DNA of 6,192 nt from a virus. Its lineage: Duplodnaviria; Heunggongvirae; Uroviricota; Caudoviricetes. Shown here in pieces: positions 1 through 6,192 of this stretch (position 1 is the first letter of the stretch; each line of letters opens with the position of its first letter). The position numbers and the translations under genes are program-made. The stretch lies in the IMG/VR virus record IMGVR_UViG_2563366944_000009. One strand, written 5' to 3'. The notes under the pieces were generated by a model. It was not told the DNA's origin. It made no database searches and saw only the letters and a list, made by a program, of their open reading frames with translations.

Positions 1-66
1 TCAAAATCGGTGGAGCTGCATGACAAAGTCATCGGGCATTATCTGAACATAAAACACTATCAATAA
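1..66 (+). CDS. insB: IS1 transposase InsB, C-terminal fragment (5' end outside the window)
   Basis: In-frame translation of 1-63 gives SKSVELHDKVIGHYLNIKHYQ followed by TAA at 64-66, which is the recalled C-terminus of IS1 InsB. Confidence 0.8.
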   Translation, partial: SKSVELHDKVIGHYLNIKHYQ

Positions 67-81
67 GTTGGAGTCATTACC
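1..81 (+). mobile_element. Right-hand end of an IS1 insertion sequence (the element continues left of the window), ending in its terminal inverted repeat at about 59-81
   Basis: Bases 1-81 match the recalled 3' end of IS1, finishing ...CACTATCAATAAGTTGGAGTCATTACC, the complement of the GGTAATGACTCCAACTTATTGAT terminal repeat. The putative 9-bp target duplication would be 82-90 (ttatttgag) but cannot be verified without the other end. Confidence 0.85.
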
Positions 82-139
82 TTATTTGAGTTAGAGCAAA
101 TAAATTGTGATGAGAGCAATGGTATCAATCAGCTACTTG

Positions 140-157
140 ATGGATTTTAAAATCCAT
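140..157. repeat. Perfect 18-bp palindrome ATGGATTTTAAAATCCAT in the AT-rich cos-flanking DNA
   Basis: Read directly from the sequence; self-complementary about its centre. Its function is unknown; a protein-binding site in the packaging region is one possibility. Confidence 0.4.
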
Positions 158-184
158 ACCTATTTAATTCTTATACTGCGCGCA

Positions 185-203
185 GTGCTTTCCCCGCCTC
201 GCC
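185..203 (-). other. cos cohesive-end sequence of the P2/P4 family
   Basis: gtgctttccccgcctcgcc at 185-203 is the exact reverse complement of GGCGAGGCGGGGAAAGCAC, the 19-nt cohesive end I recall for P2, 186 and P4. It sits just downstream of psu, as in P4. Confidence 0.7.
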
Positions 204-234
204 CGCCCGCTTTGCGGGGCGGTTTTAATGCAGT
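196..234 (+). terminator. Candidate intrinsic terminator (GC-rich imperfect hairpin plus TTTT) overlapping cos
   Basis: cccgc-tttg-gcggg stem followed by gcgg and TTTT. Oriented for transcripts entering from the left across cos. Confidence 0.3.
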
Positions 235-304
235 TGTACTGACACGCTCAGACCGCGCCGGGAATGGCACGGTTTACAGAAAATGAGGCAGGAAAACGCA
301 TGCA

Positions 305-337
305 AAGCCATGCACCTTATCGATGCATGGCTTTTTT
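305..337 (+). terminator. Candidate rho-independent terminator
   Basis: 10-bp perfect stem aagccatgca (305-314) / tgcatggctt (324-333) with a 9-nt loop, then a T-run at 332-337. The stem is palindromic so it also folds on the minus strand, where the U-tract is poorer. Confidence 0.5.
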
Positions 338-366
338 CAGTAAAACGGGCGGATTTTCGGGGAGTT

Positions 367-939
367 TTACACAGACTGACGTGATGCCAGTTGCGCACTT
401 TTACGCGAAAAAATCATGTTCTGCGCAGGGGTGAATTTTTCACGGCTGTCATCCACCGAAGCCGCGTCAGGCCTGAATCCGATGGTCGTTAAAATGTCGC
501 TATCCTGTGCGGAATAATTAATTTTTTCCCCCTTCGCAAGCCAGGACAGGAGGGCTTCACGCAGGGCATCTGTGGCACGCTGTATGGCACAGTTTCGGGC
601 AATGGCCGTCAGCTCACTGTAGCCCATCAGCTCCGGTGCCAGTGCGGCCGCCAGTGCTGTGCCGTGCTGCTGCATAAAATCATTCAGCCGGTCGCGGATG
701 CTGATGTGCTGAACGGCTTCATGCGAACGAATATAACGACCGGCAGCCTGATTCACCTGCCATTTTCTGACTTCGATAATATTGCGTAATTCGTCCAGGC
801 GACTGACGTTTCTGCCTTCTCCTGACAGAAGCCGCAGATATTCCTGTTCGGCCGCAGCCAGCTCATTTTTGCGTTGCAGCCATGCTGCTTTGTTATTCTG
901 ACAGGTGTCAAAGGCCTGCTGTAAGGCTGTGCTTTCCAT
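367..939 (-). CDS. psu: Psu-like polarity suppression protein (capsid decoration / Rho antagonist of P4-type satellites), 190 aa
   Basis: Last gene of a minus-strand three-gene operon ending next to cos. The 190-aa length and position match P4 Psu. ATG at 939-937, TAA at 369-367. Confidence 0.75.
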   Translation of the reverse strand: MESTALQQAFDTCQNNKAAWLQRKNELAAAEQEYLRLLSGEGRNVSRLDELRNIIEVRKWQVNQAAGRYIRSHEAVQHISIRDRLNDFMQQHGTALAAALAPELMGYSELTAIARNCAIQRATDALREALLSWLAKGEKINYSAQDSDILTTIGFRPDAASVDDSREKFTPAQNMIFSRKSAQLASRQSV

Positions 940-1012
940 CGTTATCTCTTTCTCATCATGCTGAAGAATAAAAATACGGTGTGCGGCGACGGCCGGGGTT
1001 AACCGGCAGCCC

Positions 1013-1513
1013 TCATTCCAGACGCAGCGAATATGATTGTGTTTTTAACCGTACTGGCGGCAGTTCCTGTTTTTCATGCAGGCTTTCTGCCAGTTCGTCC
1101 GGCGTGACCGGGCGGACAATGAAGCGGTTGATGGTCTGAAGCGTTTTAAACACCAGACCACAGCCCGGCTCCGTGCACACATAAAAACGTTCGGTGACTT
1201 CCTGAGACAGACGCCGCGATGTTCTTGACAGTGCAAGGCCTTTACATCTCCGACAACAATATCCGGTAACAAGCATTCTTTTCGGGCGTTTCATACTGCC
1301 GGAGGCAGAAGTCAGTGAATCGCGGTATCTCTGTTTGCCTGAAATGTATTCCATTCCTGAATCTTTACAGTCAGAGAAAAAGCTTTCACTCGCTTCAAAT
1401 GTCGCAGAGCAATAAATATTCCGGCACTGTGCAATCATTATCTTGGTGCCATCGTCCATGAAATGTGCGCGACGGGTGTGAGCAACATGTCCACACGACG
1501 GGCAGTAAATCAT
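1013..1513 (-). CDS. delta: Delta-like late-gene transcriptional activator, a tandem duplication of the Ogr-type zinc finger, 166 aa
   Basis: Two C-X2-C-X22-C-X4-C motifs in the translation (CPSC...22...CRNIYC and CRRC...22...CTEPGC). Length 166 aa as in P4 Delta. The ATG at 1513-1511 overlaps the sid TGA (ATGA overlap). Confidence 0.85.
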   Translation of the reverse strand: MIYCPSCGHVAHTRRAHFMDDGTKIMIAQCRNIYCSATFEASESFFSDCKDSGMEYISGKQRYRDSLTSASGSMKRPKRMLVTGYCCRRCKGLALSRTSRRLSQEVTERFYVCTEPGCGLVFKTLQTINRFIVRPVTPDELAESLHEKQELPPVRLKTQSYSLRLE

Positions 1514-2244
1514 GACAGCAGTCCTCTGGCCTTAAGCTCTGCTCCCTGCTGGTCTATTTTGTCCTGCCACACCTTGCGCTGTGCCGGTGTGCCTGCCACC
1601 TCATAATCCATGTGCGGGAGTGTTGCCGCTGACAGTCCGGTCAGCCGGAGAACCGGCTCACCGCTGAGGCTGATTTGCATCTGTTTTATTTTCTGTTCCA
1701 GCGATGATTTCACCTGCTGCATGACAGCCTTTTCCGGTGCGATGTAGCCCTGATGGCCGGTGGTGTTGGCGAGCGGATTTTCCTGTACCAGGATGCTCAG
1801 ATGCATTGCCCGGACAAGCGCCTCACAGGTTTCATTCAGGGCGTGTTCCAGCTCATGCTCTGCATACAGACTCAGAAGGTGATGATGTGCCTTCCGGTAG
1901 GCGGTGGCCGTGCTGTCACACGCCCCTTTCAGGCGTTCGCGTTCAAAATTCAGCACCACGGCCAGATTGTCATATTCCTGTACCAGCTCCCGGCGTGCCA
2001 CGCGCTCAATGTGGCGCTGTTTCAGCTCATCGCTCAGGACACCACCGGCTGCACGAAAGGCCGTGCGCCAGTCGTCAGCGTCGTTTCCGTCGGCCTGCGC
2101 CAGCGCATTTTTTTCCTGCTCTGCCCGTTCAATGGCCGTGACGGTCTCATCCATCAGGCGGGCGTTCTCAAGATGGGCGGCTCTGGCCTTTTCCAGTTGT
2201 GCCAGCGCGGGTTGCAGATATTCAGGGATGGTGTTGTCAGACAT
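1510..2244 (-). CDS. sid: Sid-like capsid size-determination (external scaffold) protein, 244 aa from the preferred ATG
   Basis: First gene of the late operon, with a long predicted helical, charged sequence. The ATG at 2244-2242 has GAGG 9 nt upstream and gives 244 aa, the P4 Sid length. The track's GTG at 2262 has no Shine-Dalgarno sequence. Confidence 0.7.
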   Translation of the reverse strand: MSDNTIPEYLQPALAQLEKARAAHLENARLMDETVTAIERAEQEKNALAQADGNDADDWRTAFRAAGGVLSDELKQRHIERVARRELVQEYDNLAVVLNFERERLKGACDSTATAYRKAHHHLLSLYAEHELEHALNETCEALVRAMHLSILVQENPLANTTGHQGYIAPEKAVMQQVKSSLEQKIKQMQISLSGEPVLRLTGLSAATLPHMDYEVAGTPAQRKVWQDKIDQQGAELKARGLLS

Positions 2245-2316
2245 TTTCCGGTTCCTCGTCACTTCAGGTTAAGAAAATTGTGACGTACACCGGACAACAA
2301 CACGACGCATTGCAGA

Positions 2317-2334
2317 TGTGCCAGCCCTGACACA
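2317..2334. promoter_or_regulatory. TGT-N12-ACA dyad, candidate Delta/Ogr activator site of the leftward late promoter (Psid-like)
   Basis: TGTgccagccctgacACA read directly. Its centre lies about 80 bp upstream of the sid start codon, consistent with an activator site near -55 of a late promoter. Confidence 0.5.
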
Positions 2335-2414
2335 GGAGACTCATCCTCAGACCGGCAAGCCAGGAAAAGGTCGCAGGAAAAACCGGCTTACTGTTTGTTT
2401 TTTTTATATTTTAC

Positions 2415-2518
2415 TGTTCACCTCTGTTCACAATAAGAAAAAAGATAAGTAATACAGTAAGTTAAAGGGTGAACAATCGCAGTAATGACTGTTCACCGTC
2501 TGTTCACCACTGTTCACC
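2415..2518. repeat. Iteron array, six copies of TGTTCAC(C/A): candidate ori-type binding sites for the alpha replication protein
   Basis: Copies at 2415-2422, 2425-2432, 2468-2475 (inverted), 2490-2497, 2501-2508 and 2511-2518; the last three are spaced 10-11 bp apart. P4 ori and crr are known to carry TGTTCACC octamers bound by alpha. An AT-rich tract follows at about 2520-2620. Confidence 0.65.
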
Positions 2519-2676
2519 CGTTGATGGGCTTTTTGTGCTGTTTATTACTTTTTATTTTTATTAATTCACTGAAATAAATAAGAAAAAACAATTTGTATTT
2601 CACTATAATTTTTTCCAGCTCCTTCCAGAGCGTTTTAAAGCTATCTGGCGCTGATGTACAAAAAATGCACAGCCAT

Positions 2677-2694
2677 TGTAAGGCTGCCGGAACA
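2677..2694. promoter_or_regulatory. TGT-N12-ACA dyad, candidate Delta/Ogr site of the rightward late promoter (PLL-like) upstream of vis
   Basis: TGTaaggctgccggaACA read directly, centred about 110 bp upstream of the vis ATG. Confidence 0.45.
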
Positions 2695-2796
2695 AATCCC
2701 CCCTGTTGCGTCTGCCGAAAATATTCACAAAATAAAGCGCTACCCGAAGCCGGACGGACTTATCCGGTGCTGTATGGACATTAACGAGGTAGCCCG

Positions 2797-3063
2797 ATGC
2801 AAGCTGTTTTTTCTTCCCCGTCTCCCGCCCCTGTGACGCCACTGATGCCGCTGCCGGACATCACACAGGAGCGTTTTTTACGTCTTCCGGAAGTGATGCA
2901 CCTGTGCGGCCTGTCACGCTCGACCATCTACGAACTCATCCGTAAGGGGGAATTTCCGCCGCAGGTGAGTCTTGGCGGTAAAAATGTGGCCTGGCTGCAC
3001 TCTGAAGTCACCGCATGGATGGCCGGCCGCATTGCCGGACGCAAACGGGGGTACGACGCATGA
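2797..3063 (+). CDS. vis: AlpA/Vis-family small DNA-binding regulator and excision factor, 88 aa
   Basis: The translation contains the AlpA-type helix-turn-helix core ([50 protein letters not shown]). GAGG lies 7 nt before the ATG. The 88-aa length and first position after the divergent late promoter match P4 Vis. Confidence 0.85.
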
Positions 3064-3157
3064 TGATGCCTGTTCTGCAAAAAGTCCCTTTTTCTGGCTT
3101 GCCTTTTTCCGGCATTTGCGGATATAGTTTTTCCGCTGTCGCAAAATCGGCAGCCGG

Positions 3158-3183
3158 GCGTGGAAACCCGAGCAATCTAACGG
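3158..3183 (+). promoter_or_regulatory. Upstream copy of a candidate antisense-RNA target site (GCGTGGAAAC ... ATCTAACGG)
   Basis: Direct repeat of the element at 3410-3450. Both are approximately complementary to 3364-3385. Confidence 0.35.
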
Positions 3184-3191
3184 CGACATAT

Positions 3192-3213
3192 GACGCGCCA
3201 TGCGTCTTTTTTT
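3192..3213 (+). terminator. Weak hairpin plus T7 run, a possible attenuator just after the upstream target site
   Basis: gacgc-gccat-gcgtc followed by TTTTTTT at 3207-3213. The stem is only 5 bp. Confidence 0.25.
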
Positions 3214-3329
3214 GTGTCGCAATCAACGCCACAGAGCGCCAGATTATGGTGTGGTGTGTGGTCAGTCGAGCAGATGGAACTCCGTGCATCCTGCCCGCGT
3301 CCGCTCATTATGCCGCAGAGTCAATGGTA

Positions 3330-3400
3330 GCTCAGGCGGGGCAGCCTCCGGGCTGGCCGGTATCCGTTAGAGCCGGTATTTCCACCCCCGTCTGGGCTAT
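3330..3400 (+). ncRNA. Candidate c4/CI-type antisense immunity RNA; boundaries are approximate
   Basis: The core CCGTTAGA...TTTCCAC (3364-3385) is near-complementary to GTGGAAAC...ATCTAACGG, found both upstream (3158-3183) and overlapping the icd ribosome-binding site (3410-3450). This mirrors the P1 c4 and P4 CI arrangement. No protein-coding signal spans this 400-bp gap. Confidence 0.3.
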
Positions 3401-3409
3401 CGCCATCGA

Positions 3410-3450
3410 GCGTGGAAACTCCGGCGATAGCGTAACCTGCTATCTAACGG
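3410..3450 (+). promoter_or_regulatory. Downstream target-site copy overlapping the Shine-Dalgarno sequence of the Icd-like gene, lying in the loop and 3' arm of a 9-bp hairpin
   Basis: GCGTGGAAAC at 3410-3419 and ATCTAACGG at 3442-3450, running into GGAGG at 3449-3453. A stem gctatcgcc / ggcgatagc flanks the first motif. Confidence 0.4.
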
Positions 3451-3461
3451 AGGCTGCCATC

Positions 3462-3659
3462 ATGGCTACAACCCTTACCCCTTCACACCCTGAATTTGTC
3501 TTTGTGTTTGCGGCTGTCCGTCGCGCAGACCGTCATCCCCGTATCTGCATGCTTCGCACCGTCGCCGGTGATGAACGCAGTGCCCGCCGTTCCCTTGTCC
3601 GTGACTATGTGCTCTCCCTTGCTGCCCGTCTGCCGGTGGTGGAGGTGTCCCGTGCGTAA
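3462..3659 (+). CDS. Icd-like host cell-division inhibitor family protein, 65 aa
   Basis: GGAGG lies 8 nt upstream of the ATG. The translation [65 protein letters not shown] fits my recollection of the short Icd-like proteins found in P4-like prophages. The 214-aa track ORF 3015..3659 is an upstream extension through non-coding DNA. Confidence 0.7.
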
Positions 3660-3939
3660 TAAAAAAGCCCCTCAGACCGTCTCAGCGCGTCATGACGCCC
3701 GTGAACACCTCAGCATTGAGGCTTACCATAAGCTCAACCGCGCCAGCGCCGTATCCCAGTTTGTTGGGGGTGATTTGATTCACCGTGAACTCTCCGGCCT
3801 GCATCAGCTCTACATTCCGCATATTTTCAGCTACCTGAATGAAGATATTGATTTTGTGCTGAATGAGCTGAAAGCCAAAGGCCTGTGCCGCGATTTTCTC
3901 GCCCAGCAGAAAGACCGGGGAGACAAGACGCATGTTTGA
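3652..3939 (+). CDS. Small hypothetical protein, 95 aa, in the position and of about the size of the P4 epsilon anti-repressor; start is uncertain
   Basis: GTG at 3652 with GGAGG 6 nt upstream, overlapping the icd stop. The frame is open back to 3496, but that would overlap icd by 160 nt. No recognisable motif. Confidence 0.5.
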
Positions 3940-4387
3940 TTTTCCCCAGCCCGGTGAGATTTACCGTTCTGCCGGTTTTCCCGATGTGGCCGTGGTCGGC
4001 ATTCTGGAAGACGGTATTCCGTGGGAAATGCCGTACCGCTGCCCGGACATTGTCTGGAACCCGTACCGCCGTAAATTCAGTATCCTTGTGCGTATCCTCG
4101 CTGACGGGCGCACCACAGACATCCCGCTGGGGCGTTTTCTGCGGGAATTTACCTGTGACCGTCCTGACCTGTTTAAACGCAGCCCCGTAAACCGGCATGC
4201 GGTACTGAAAGAAATGGCCGGAGACCCGGAATTACAGAAATGGCGGGAGAAATATCTGGATATTTACCCGCAGGCCCCTGTTCCGGTCAGCCGGGCGGCA
4301 CCGGTGGCGCGGGAATGGCGGGAAATTCCCCGCACGGAGCCTGACCCGGAAATCACCCCGGATAACAGTTACCGCAATTATCTGTAA
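3932..4387 (+). CDS. Hypothetical protein, 151 aa (same length as P4 orf151)
   Basis: Its ATG overlaps the preceding stop (ATGTTTGA), suggesting translational coupling. Codon usage is consistent with its neighbours. Function unknown. Confidence 0.6.
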   Translation: MFDFPQPGEIYRSAGFPDVAVVGILEDGIPWEMPYRCPDIVWNPYRRKFSILVRILADGRTTDIPLGRFLREFTCDRPDLFKRSPVNRHAVLKEMAGDPELQKWREKYLDIYPQAPVPVSRAAPVAREWREIPRTEPDPEITPDNSYRNYL

Positions 4388-4460
4388 TTAAAAAACGACA
4401 CCCGAAAAATTAAATGTGCGTATTCGCGCAGGGATACGCACGTCTTCAGGAGACGCAGAT

Positions 4461-4526
4461 ATGCCTTATCAGTTAATGCAACCGGCACGGAATGCAGTCA
4501 TCTGTCACAGGGAGGAAAACAAATGA
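4461..4526 (+). CDS. Possible 21-codon upstream ORF ([21 protein letters not shown]) coupled to the next gene
   Basis: AGGAG lies 8 nt before the ATG at 4461, and the TGA at 4524-4526 overlaps the ATG at 4523 (ATGA). Too short to assert as a gene. Confidence 0.25.
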
Positions 4527-4843
4527 AAACACCCTTACCGCCCGTCTTACGTGCTGCCCTTTACCGTCGCGCTGTCGCCTGTGCCTGGCTGACCGTGTGC
4601 GAACGTCAGCACCGCTACCCGCATCTCACCCTTGAGTCACTGGAGGCGGCCATCGCCGCTGAGCTGGAAGGCTTTTATCTGCGCCAGCACGGTGAGGAAA
4701 AAGGGCGTCAGATAGCCTGTGCCCTGCTGGAAGATTTAATGGAATCCGGCCCCCTGAAGGCCGCGCCGTCGCTGTCCTTTCTCGGGCTGGTTGTGATGGA
4801 TGAACTCTGTGCCCGTCACATAAAAGCGCCGGTACTGCACTGA
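4523..4843 (+). CDS. Hypothetical protein, 106 aa, immediately upstream of the primase
   Basis: GGGAGG lies 8 nt before the ATG. The stop TGA overlaps the primase ribosome-binding site AAGGAG. Function unknown. Confidence 0.6.
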
Positions 4844-4857
4844 AGGAGAACAACACC

Positions 4858-6192
4858 ATGAAAATGAACGTAACCGCCACCGTCAGCCATGCGCTCGGCC
4901 ACTGGCCGCGTATTCTCCCGGCGCTGGGGATTCAGGTGCTGAAAAACCGTCATCAGCCCTGTCCGGTCTGTGGCGGGAGTGACCGCTTCCGTTTTGATGA
5001 CAGGGAGGGGCGCGGCACCTGGTACTGCAATCAGTGTGGTGCCGGTGACGGCCTGAAACTGGTTGGAAAGGTGTTTGGTGTCTCTCCGTCCGACGCGGCC
5101 GCAAAGGTGGCTGCCGTGACCGGCAGCCTGCCCCCGGCTGACCCGGCAGTGACGGCCGCCGCCGTTGCTGAAACAGACGCTGCCCGGAAGAACGCCGCCG
5201 CACTGGCACAAACCCTGATGGCAAAAACCCGTCCCGGAACCGGTAACGCCTACCTGACCCGCAAGGGCTTTCCCGGCCGGGAATGCCGGATGCTGACCGG
5301 CACACACAGAGCCGGTGGCGTGAGCTGGCGCGCCGGTGACCTTGTGGTGCCACTGTATGACGACAGCGGCGAACTGGTTAACCTTCAGTTAATCAGTGCT
5401 GACGGCCGTAAGCGCACCCTGAAAGGCGGACAGGTCAGGGGCACCTGTCACACCCTTGAAGGACAGAATCAGGCCGGAAAACGTCTGTGGATAGCGGAGG
5501 GATACGCGACCGCACTTACCGTGCATCACCTGACCGGTGAAACGGTGATGGTGGCGCTTTCTTCCGTGAACCTCCTTTCTCTGGCCAGCCTTGCCCGGCA
5601 GAAGCATCCGGCCTGTCAGATTGTCCTTGCCGCAGACCGTGACCTCAGCGGTGACGGCCAGAAAAAAGCCGCCGCAGCCGCAGATGCGTGTGAGGGCGTT
5701 GTTGCCCTGCCGCCGGTCTTCGGTGACTGGAATGATGCCTTCACGCAGTACGGCGGGGAGGCCACCCGTAAGGCCATTTACGATGCCATCCGGCCACCGG
5801 CTGAAAGCCCGTTCGACACCATGAGCGAAGCAGAGTTTTCCGCCATGAGTACCAGCGAAAAGGCCATGCGTATCTATGAGCATTACGGCGAGGCGCTCGC
5901 GGTCGATGCCAACGGCCAGCTTCTGTCCCGCTATGAAAATGGTGTCTGGAAGGTGCTGCCGCCACAGGACTTTGCCCGGGATGTGGCCGGGCTGTTTCAG
6001 CGTCTGCGCGCGCCGTTCTCCTCCGGGAAGGTGGCCTCCGTGGTGGACACCCTGAAACTGATTATTCCGCAGCAGGAAGCCCCCTCCCGCCGCCTGATTG
6101 GCTTTCGTAACGGCGTGCTCGACACGCAGAACGGCACGTTCCATCCGCACAGTCCGTCACACTGGATGCGCACCCTGTGCGATGTGGATTTC
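4858..6192 (+). CDS. alpha: P4 alpha-type primase/helicase replication protein, N-terminal 445 codons (3' end beyond the window)
   Basis: AAGGAG lies 9 nt before the ATG. I translated the frame by hand to the window edge and found no stop. It has an N-terminal zinc ribbon (CPVCGGSDRFRFDDREGRGTWYCNQCG) and a Toprim-type motif (RLWIAEGYATALT ... VLAADRDLSGDG). Absent from the track only because it has no in-window stop. Confidence 0.9.
   Translation, partial: MKMNVTATVSHALGHWPRILPALGIQVLKNRHQPCPVCGGSDRFRFDDREGRGTWYCNQCGAGDGLKLVGKVFGVSPSDAAAKVAAVTGSLPPADPAVTAAAVAETDAARKNAAALAQTLMAKTRPGTGNAYLTRKGFPGRECRMLTGTHRAGGVSWRAGDLVVPLYDDSGELVNLQLISADGRKRTLKGGQVRGTCHTLEGQNQAGKRLWIAEGYATALTVHHLTGETVMVALSSVNLLSLASLARQKHPACQIVLAADRDLSGDGQKKAAAAADACEGVVALPPVFGDWNDAFTQYGGEATRKAIYDAIRPPAESPFDTMSEAEFSAMSTSEKAMRIYEHYGEALAVDANGQLLSRYENGVWKVLPPQDFARDVAGLFQRLRAPFSSGKVASVVDTLKLIIPQQEAPSRRLIGFRNGVLDTQNGTFHPHSPSHWMRTLCDVDF

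What the first reader, a model, noticed from the sequence alone, without database searches (positions are those of the whole stretch)
1..203. IS1 inserted about 100 bp from cos, at the edge of the satellite's cargo hotspot
In P4-like satellites the segment between psu/cos and int is the known hotspot for variable cargo, including anti-phage defence systems. Here an IS1 end abuts the cos-flanking DNA at position 81, so whatever occupied the hotspot lies left of the window and may be disrupted, rearranged or mobilised by IS1. An extra 768 bp so close to cos could also affect packaging of the element.
Basis: partly seen in the sequence, partly recalled or inferred. Interest (0 to 1): 0.45.

Follow-up and report, generated by a model that had tools for sequence, protein, structure and literature searches.

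The report
IS1 inside a satellite's defence gene
The window opens with the last 81 bases of the common jumping gene IS1, which has landed in the tail of a known candidate anti-phage gene (bNACHT22) carried by a P4-like phage satellite; this is an ordinary insertion that leaves the satellite's packaging site untouched.

Summary
Window 1-81 is the right end of IS1, 81/81 identical to IS1A copies. Window 204-6192 is a P4-like satellite, 97.5% identical to P4, with cos cohesive ends at 185-203.

The interpretation needs one correction. IS1 is not at the edge of the cargo hotspot. Window 82-150 is the last 22 codons plus stop of the cargo gene itself. That gene is a 652-aa NACHT protein, WP_001183326.1, the bNACHT22 of Kibby et al. 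It fills the int-cos hotspot in all close relatives.

The left side cannot be read. However, four public E. coli contigs carry int plus bNACHT22 codons 1-632 and end at ...TTATTTGA. The best reading (0.72) is therefore a simple IS1 insertion with an 8-9 bp duplication. It would replace the last 19 residues of the protein.

The main rival (0.18) is an IS1-mediated deletion of the gene, starting from the IS1 that the closest relatives carry just upstream in the same orientation.

The packaging worry is not supported. Conservation among P4-likes ends 8 nt beyond the cohesive end, about 95 bp from IS1, and the enlarged element is about P4's size.

All components are known, so interest is low.

The parts
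1..81 (+). Right end of IS1 (IS1A type). It holds the InsB C-terminal codons (1-63), the stop codon (64-66) and the 23-bp right inverted repeat (59-81).
   Evidence: 81/81 identity to L001 12013-12093. 100% identical to annotated IS1 in phage records. Translation.
82..90 (+). Target sequence ttatttgag, the right-hand copy of the presumed 8-9 bp target-site duplication. It corresponds to bNACHT22 codons 631-633.
   Evidence: The uninterrupted sequence in L001 reads ...gacagtgctttatttgagttagagc. Contig L024 ends ...gacagtgctttatttga.
82..150 (+). 3' remnant of the cargo gene bNACHT22 (WP_001183326.1, 652 aa). It encodes LFELEQINCDESNGINQLLDGF followed by the stop codon.
   Evidence: Identical to L001 14001-14069, the end of the annotated NACHT CDS. 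Named bNACHT22 in the Kibby supplement.
177..203 (-). Conserved cos core: the 19-nt cohesive end (185-203, reverse complement GGCGAGGCGGGGAAAGCAC) plus 8 conserved nt (177-184).
   Evidence: Alignment A1 of P4 and 6 P4-likes with unrelated cargo. More than 2,200 E. coli genomes with other cargo align only from window 162-180 rightward.
203..222 (+). GC-rich hairpin followed by a T-run (terminator-like), in the conserved cos flank.
   Evidence: Conserved in A1.
367..939 (-). psu (190 aa), intact.
   Evidence: PF07455.
1013..1513 (-). delta (166 aa), intact.
1510..2244 (-). sid (244 aa), intact.
2797..4843 (+). Satellite early/regulatory block, by coordinate transfer from L001: alpA-like ORF88 (2797-3063), Ash/Icd-like 199 aa (3060-3659), epsilon (3652-3939), ORF151 (3932-4387), ORF106/DUF5375 (4523-4843).
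   Evidence: The window differs from L001 only at 529 and 671.
4858..6192 (+). alpha primase-helicase, N-terminal 445 codons. It runs off the window.

Best explanation
An IS1 copy transposed into the AT-rich 3' end of bNACHT22. This is the single NLR-like candidate defence gene that fills the int-cos hotspot of this P4-like satellite.

Proposed mechanism. The IS1 transposase made a staggered cut at TTATTTGA(G), bNACHT22 codons 631-633, and the cut was filled in to give an 8-9 bp duplication. To the left of the window I infer the rest of IS1 (about 687 bp), then the left copy of the duplication, then bNACHT22 codons 1-632/633, then int. This order is inferred, not seen.

Consequences. The protein would lose its last 19 residues and gain 8 IS1-encoded ones (GDAANLLI with a 9-bp duplication). 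It would keep the NACHT NTPase and nearly all of the SNaCT5 sensor domain. Whether it still works is unknown. cos and all satellite core genes visible in the window are intact. The element becomes about 777 bp longer, reaching roughly the size of P4, so packaging by a P2-type helper should still be possible. That last point is inferred and not tested.

The resident IS1 also makes the locus prone to later IS1-mediated deletions, as one relative (L025) shows.
For: Shown:
- IS1 identity and the exact boundary.
- Window 82-150 is the bNACHT22 3' end.
- The cluster look-up of bNACHT22 returned P0003, a 632-aa 'partial' protein ending ...KYDSALF, present on 4 NCBI E. coli contigs.
- The contig fetched, ABDBQQ010000028.1, carries int followed directly by bNACHT22 and stops at ...gctttatttga, the predicted left copy of the duplication. 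It has no IS1 upstream of the gene.
- Four assemblies breaking in the same codon fit a repeat inserted there. A random break would fall within 1 nt of this site in a 1,959-nt gene only about 1 time in 1,000.
- The target is AT-rich: bNACHT22 is 32.7% GC against 56.2% for the backbone.
- Two other independent IS1 insertions lie in or next to the same gene, in L001 with the duplication aaaataagg and in L025.
- cos is unaffected. Size estimate.

Base rate: in the LTEE sample of PMC11708052, 69 of 83 IS movements, including all 5 IS1 events, were simple insertions with a duplication.
Against: - The left flank of this very window is not available.
- I could not show that the window and the four P0003 contigs come from the same lineage, because they share no sequence other than the 8 nt.
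- The P0003 contig ends without any IS1 bases, so the repeat that breaks it is inferred to be IS1, not seen.
- The predicted complete fusion proteins (641 aa or 639 aa, in both the S and P variants) are not in the 15-billion-protein collection.
- The window's nearest relatives by SNPs (L001 with 2 differences, L020 with 4 plus 2 gaps, L015 with 6) all carry an IS1 just upstream of bNACHT22 in the same orientation as the window's IS1. That is what an adjacent deletion would need.
Confidence: 0.72

Rival explanations
1. IS1-mediated loss of the defence gene. The ancestor resembled L001, with an IS1 between the int stop and the bNACHT22 ATG. Either an adjacent deletion from IS1's right end, or recombination with a second IS1 inserted at codon 631, removed 1,907 bp (L001 12094-14000, bNACHT22 codons 1-630). 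Left of the window there would then be one IS1 and then int. The hotspot would be empty except for the 69-nt remnant.
For: - The closest relatives carry that upstream IS1 in the same orientation as the window's IS1.
- The window differs from L001 at only 2 of 6,111 positions.
- IS1-associated deletion is demonstrated in this same cargo family. In L025 an IS1 joins bNACHT22 codon 648 to delta with no duplication, deleting cos and psu.
- Adjacent deletions and IS x IS recombination are common causes of missing duplications (PMC11708052).
Against: - It requires the deletion endpoint to coincide to the nucleotide with the site where four independent contigs that have an intact upstream gene, and no upstream IS1, break.
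- H2/L012, which lacks any IS1, is also a very close backbone relative, so backbone similarity does not imply the upstream IS1.
- Same orientation is only a 2:1 argument.
Confidence: 0.18
2. Composite arrangement. The source is an L001-type element that has both the upstream IS1 and this new IS1. bNACHT22 would then be bracketed by two direct IS1 copies, giving a Tn9-like structure that could move or delete the defence gene.
For: The window's backbone is closest to L001-type elements. Two direct IS1 copies would also explain why a short-read contig stops in IS1.
Against: No such doubly flanked copy was seen in any locus fetched. bNACHT22 was not found on any plasmid of PLSDB; the only hit is a 73.5%-identical Arsenophonus homologue. 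The only contig showing the left side of this site lacks the upstream IS1.
Confidence: 0.07
3. Assembly artefact. The 81 IS1 bases would be a repeat overhang wrongly attached to this contig end, and no IS1 sits at this site.
For: The window starts inside a high-copy repeat, as contig ends often do. No database sequence reproduces the junction.
Against: The switch from IS1 to satellite falls exactly at IS1's last base and inside a gene. Independent assemblies break at the matching position on the other side.
Confidence: 0.03

Closest known systems
IS1 (IS1A) insertions and IS1-mediated deletions in E. coli/Shigella
   Same: Identical terminal 81 nt, an AT-rich target, and an 8-9 bp duplication (8 nt seen on an independent contig). 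Relatives show both a classic insertion with a 9-bp duplication (L001, aaaataagg) and a duplication-less deletion derivative (L025).
   Different: Nothing mechanistically different. Only the location is particular: the 3' end of a satellite-borne NLR-like gene, 103 bp from cos.
P4-like satellite defence hotspot between psu/cos and int (Rousset et al. 2022, PMC9122126; NAR 2026, PMC13586616)
   Same: Same backbone (97.5% to P4) and same hotspot position directly next to cos. The cargo 'NACHT WP_001183326' is already listed in Rousset's Table S1.
   Different: Here the cargo is interrupted by an IS. The NAR 2026 survey reports that defence pseudogenes are under 1% of P4 pseudogenes and describes transposable elements as thought to be infrequent in phage and satellite genomes. 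This cargo shows several independent hits.
bNACHT22, clade 14 (bNACHT01-like) bacterial NLR-related proteins (Kibby et al., preprint 10.1101/2022.07.19.500537)
   Same: The remnant is 69/69 nt identical to the gene for WP_001183326.1, which the paper names bNACHT22. Pfam finds NACHT 113-247 and SNaCT5 446-638.
   Different: In this window only the last 22 codons are present. The tested full-length protein gave only an equivocal effect on T3, and the authors left it out of their main figure. Its defence function is therefore itself unproven.
IS transposition inactivating immune systems (e.g. IS insertions into cas genes, PMC10359306)
   Same: An IS has landed in a gene of a presumed defence system.
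   Different: Here the hit is at the extreme 3' end, so inactivation is not established.

Membership tests
IS1 family insertion sequence | Terminal inverted repeat of about 23 bp (right end GGTAATGACTCCAACTTATTGAT) | tested here: met
   Window 59-81 is its reverse complement. 81/81 identity to the end of a complete IS1.
IS1 family insertion sequence | insA-insB' transposase genes with programmed frameshift; total length 768 bp | not testable with these tools
   Only the last 21 InsB codons lie in the window. The remaining 687 bp would be left of position 1.
IS1 family insertion sequence | 8-9 bp direct duplication of the target | tested here: inconclusive
   The right copy, ttatttgag, is at window 82-90. 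A left copy (ttatttga) ends an independent contig, L024, but that contig cannot be tied to this window.
P4-like phage satellite | Core genes psu, delta, sid, alpA, epsilon and alpha in P4 order | tested here: met
   97.5% identity to P4 over window 204-6192. ORFs intact. alpha runs off the window.
P4-like phage satellite | P2-type cos site with 19-nt cohesive end | tested here: met
   Window 185-203 is the reverse complement of P4 nt 1-19.
P4-like phage satellite | Integrase beyond the hotspot | not testable with these tools
   It would lie left of the window. It is present in every close relative.
P4 hotspot cargo bNACHT22 (clade 14 NACHT + SNaCT) | Sequence identity to WP_001183326.1 with NACHT and SNaCT5 domains | tested here: met
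   The remnant is 69/69 nt identical to the gene's 3' end. The domains were found on the full-length relative, not in this window.
P4 hotspot cargo bNACHT22 (clade 14 NACHT + SNaCT) | Demonstrated anti-phage activity | not tested
   Literature only: an equivocal T3 effect. PADLOC gives only a weak Avs2 hit, E = 0.0021.

The most novel reading that the evidence does not exclude
bNACHT22 may be a recurrent target of inactivation. Among a few dozen elements it shows three independent IS1 events (upstream of the ATG, at codon 631, at codon 648), two other IS insertions and a frameshift. This could reflect selection against a costly or self-reactive NLR-like gene on satellites, which would be an exception to the reported 'swap without pseudogenisation' rule for P4 hotspots. 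Alternatively, paired IS1 copies could turn the cargo into a composite transposon, giving a route for defence genes to leave satellites.
Probability: 0.08. Interest if true: 0.5.

Novelty: already known. Interest (0 to 1): 0.15.

Why it matters
It matters little on its own. The finding is one more IS1 insertion allele in a well-catalogued satellite carrying a catalogued cargo gene.

It has modest value as a worked example. IS elements do hit P4 hotspot cargo. An IS next to cos can later strip a satellite of cos and psu while leaving the defence gene in the chromosome, as in L025. That is one concrete path from a mobile satellite to a fixed 'defence island'.

It is also a practical warning. Short-read assemblies break at such sites, so hotspot surveys that discard loci split over two contigs, as Rousset 2022 did, will under-count IS-interrupted cargo.

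Tried and rejected
- Junction searches. The right junction gave no place covering at least 80% of the query in 5,426 complete E. coli genomes. Exact-pattern scans gave 0 hits in GTDB representatives, JGI metagenomes and IMG/VR. The predicted left junction, allowing an 8- or 9-bp duplication, gave 0 hits in genome contigs and metagenome contigs.
- Exact look-ups of predicted truncated fusion proteins, for 9-bp and 8-bp duplications and for both the S and P variants: all absent.
- Attempts to reach the source contig through ORFs in the window. The spurious ORFs 107-286 (two possible starts) and 160-270(-) have no records. Psu and Sid are too common, at 31,576 and 2,078 blocks, and only the longest contigs are read.
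- SNP phylogeny of the backbone, to decide whether the ancestor had the upstream IS1. The variable sites are few, mosaic and confined to psu-delta-sid, so they are not decisive.
- Comparing int-bNACHT22 of L024 with relatives. All are about 99.8% identical, so this is uninformative.
- Mobilisation of bNACHT22 to plasmids: none found.
- The idea that IS1 damages cos was rejected on the conservation data.
- I did not run the large protein searches or structure prediction. The effect of losing 19 C-terminal residues would still need an experiment.

Full report
**1. What is in the window**

Positions 1-81 are the right end of IS1. They match the last 81 nt of a complete, annotated 768-bp IS1A copy (L001 11326-12093) at 81/81, E = 7.7e-38. 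They are also 100% identical to IS1 copies in P1, SfIV and RCS47. Frame 1 gives the InsB C-terminus SKSVELHDKVIGHYLNIKHYQ*. Window 59-81 is the 23-bp right inverted repeat.

From 204 to 6192 the window is the minus strand of satellite phage P4 (X51522 5635-11624) at 97.5% identity. It contains:
- psu, 367-939 (-)
- delta, 1013-1513 (-)
- sid, 1510-2244 (-)
- the alpA/ash/epsilon/ORF151/ORF106 block, 2797-4843 (+)
- the first 445 codons of alpha, from 4858

Window 185-203 is the reverse complement of P4 nt 1-19, the cohesive end.

**2. What IS1 has landed in**

The 122 bases between IS1 and the P4 co-ordinate origin are not generic 'cos-flanking DNA'. In the closest complete genomes, window 82-150 is the last 69 nt of a 1,959-nt gene for a 652-aa NACHT protein, WP_001183326.1. 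These genomes are NZ_OZ547117 (L001), with 2 differences in 6,111 nt, and NZ_CP054353 (L012), with 15 differences. In both, the gene fills the whole space between int and cos.

Pfam finds a NACHT NTPase at residues 113-247 and a SNaCT5 C-terminal domain at 446-638. PADLOC gives only a marginal Avs2 hit.

The protein is listed as a 'NACHT' P4-hotspot system in Table S1 of Rousset et al. 2022. It is bNACHT22, clade 14 (bNACHT01-like), in Kibby et al.. When cloned it produced only an equivocal drop in T3 titre, which the authors chose not to show in their main figure.

IS1 therefore sits inside the cargo gene at codons 631-633, not at the edge of the hotspot.

The hotspot concept itself holds. 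Ten loci with the same Psu carry reverse transcriptases, UvrD+DUF2290, AAA_15/21+HNH, SIR2+DUF87, methylase systems and other genes between psu and int. This matches PMC9122126.

**3. What lies to the left**

This cannot be read from the window. No complete E. coli genome, GTDB representative, metagenome contig or viral contig contains the junction. Two scenarios had to be separated.

(a) Simple insertion. The 90%-identity cluster of bNACHT22 contains P0003, a 632-aa 'partial' protein ending ...KYDSALF, found on four NCBI E. coli contigs. The contig I could fetch is ABDBQQ010000028.1 from GCA_020368885.1 (L024). It carries int followed directly by bNACHT22 and terminates at ...gacagtgctttatttga. 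That is the predicted left copy of the duplication ttatttgag, minus its last g, and that g is also the first base of IS1. Either an 8-bp or a 9-bp duplication therefore fits. Four assemblies stopping in the same codon is what a repeat inserted at that site produces. A chance break within 1 nt of the site is roughly a 1-in-1,000 event for a gene of this length.

(b) Deletion. L001 and five further relatives (L015, L017, L018, L020, L021) have an IS1 between the int stop and the bNACHT22 start. Its duplication is aaaataagg, and it has the same orientation as the window's IS1. An adjacent deletion from its right end to codon 631 would give exactly the junction in the window while removing the gene. 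So would recombination with a second IS1.

The backbone SNPs do not decide between the two. They are few, mosaic and confined to psu-delta-sid, and the IS1-free L012 is also a close relative. The exact coincidence with the L024 break point favours (a). So does the base rate of simple insertions: 69 of 83 IS movements, including all 5 IS1 events, in the LTEE sample of PMC11708052. I put (a) at 0.72, (b) at 0.18, a doubly flanked composite at 0.07 and an assembly artefact at 0.03.

The link between the window and the P0003 contigs is an inference. Apart from the 8 duplicated bases they share no sequence. The S-to-P variant of P0003 is never seen full length in the collection.

**4. Consequences**

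Under (a) the product would be bNACHT22 residues 1-633 plus GDAANLLI. This is read from the IS1 left-end sequence. Nineteen residues are lost. The NACHT module remains, as do 188 of 196 positions of the SNaCT5 profile. Inactivation is possible but not shown. RefSeq annotates a similarly clipped 648-aa version in L025 as an ordinary protein.

cos is not touched. In an alignment of P4 with six P4-likes carrying unrelated cargo, conservation ends 8 nt beyond the cohesive end, at about window 177. More than 2,200 E. coli genomes with other cargo align only from window 162-180 rightward. IS1 lies about 95 bp into naturally variable territory.

A 23-bp direct repeat flanking the element is spaced 10,702 bp apart in the IS-free L012 and 11,479 bp apart in L001, a difference of 777 bp. 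P4 is 11,624 bp. An IS1-bearing copy is therefore no larger than P4. I infer that packaging is unaffected, but this is untested.

**5. Context from relatives**

Of 5,426 complete E. coli genomes, 25 carry this cargo. In 23 the region is uninterrupted, one has the upstream IS1, and one has a deletion derivative.

The deletion derivative is NZ_CP098192 (L025). There IS1's left end follows bNACHT22 codon 648 (window-equivalent 133). Its right end is fused to window-equivalent 1448 inside delta, with no duplication. The missing 1,314 bp include cos, psu and most of delta.

Non-RefSeq relatives add further hits to the same gene:
- a second IS at gene nt 153-161 (L017)
- an IS5-type element near nt 960 (L018)
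- a 1-bp indel (L020)

The gene is 32.7% GC against 56.2% for the backbone. That fits IS1's known preference for AT-rich targets (my own knowledge of the IS1 literature, not checked here). Target preference is therefore the economical explanation for the clustering. Selection against the gene is possible but unsupported.

A recent survey reports that defence pseudogenes are under 1% of P4 pseudogenes (PMC13586616). These cases are a small counter-example at most. bNACHT22 was not found on plasmids.

**6. Verdict**

Every component is known: IS1, the P4-like satellite, the psu-int hotspot and bNACHT22. The event is an ordinary transposition. Its only points of interest are that the insertion lies inside the cargo gene rather than beside it, and that relatives document the follow-on deletion of cos. 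Interest is low, at 0.15.

Noticed in passing
L025 (NZ_CP098192.1) 9053-9822; window-equivalent 133 to 1448: An IS1 joins bNACHT22 codon 648 to the middle of delta with no target duplication. The 1,314 bp holding the gene's tail, cos, psu and most of delta are gone. The satellite can no longer be packaged but keeps its defence gene.
   Followed up: yes
L001 11326-12093; also L015, L017, L018, L020, L021: A widespread lineage has an IS1 exactly between the int stop and the bNACHT22 start (duplication aaaataagg, 17 nt upstream of the ATG). Within that lineage the gene is hit again by another IS at nt 153-161 (L017), by an IS5-type element near nt 960 (L018) and by a 1-bp indel (L020).
   Followed up: partly
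Window 380-2419; loci L001, L012, L015-L022: Differences among near-identical satellites are mosaic and almost all fall in psu-delta-sid. One genome (GCA_964055605.1; L014 and L015) holds two P4-like elements with identical Sid but different cargo. This suggests gene conversion between co-resident satellites.
   Followed up: no
L016 12057-16735: Two P4-like elements appear to lie in tandem. The int of the bNACHT22 element is followed directly by another set of epsilon, ash, alpA, sid, delta and psu genes.
   Followed up: no
L012 1-5554: In strain SCU-172 the P4-like integrase lies immediately beside P2-like prophage genes (CI, CII, Fil, integrase). Satellite and potential helper are neighbours.
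   Followed up: no
Window 203-222: A GC-rich hairpin with a T-run (terminator-like, + strand) abuts the cohesive end. It is conserved across P4-likes and would stop transcription coming out of the hotspot.
   Followed up: no
block statistics for Sid (window 1510-2244): In 1,187 of 2,078 collection blocks, the longest contig carrying this Sid is only 5-10 kb. Draft assemblies routinely break around this satellite, through IS1 or duplicate satellites, so surveys that need psu and int on one contig will miss such loci.
   Followed up: no
P0003 (L024 10001-11898): The truncated bNACHT22 on the four contigs carries an S-to-P change (KLDPTDF). That change is never seen in a full-length copy in the 15-billion-protein collection.
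   Followed up: partly
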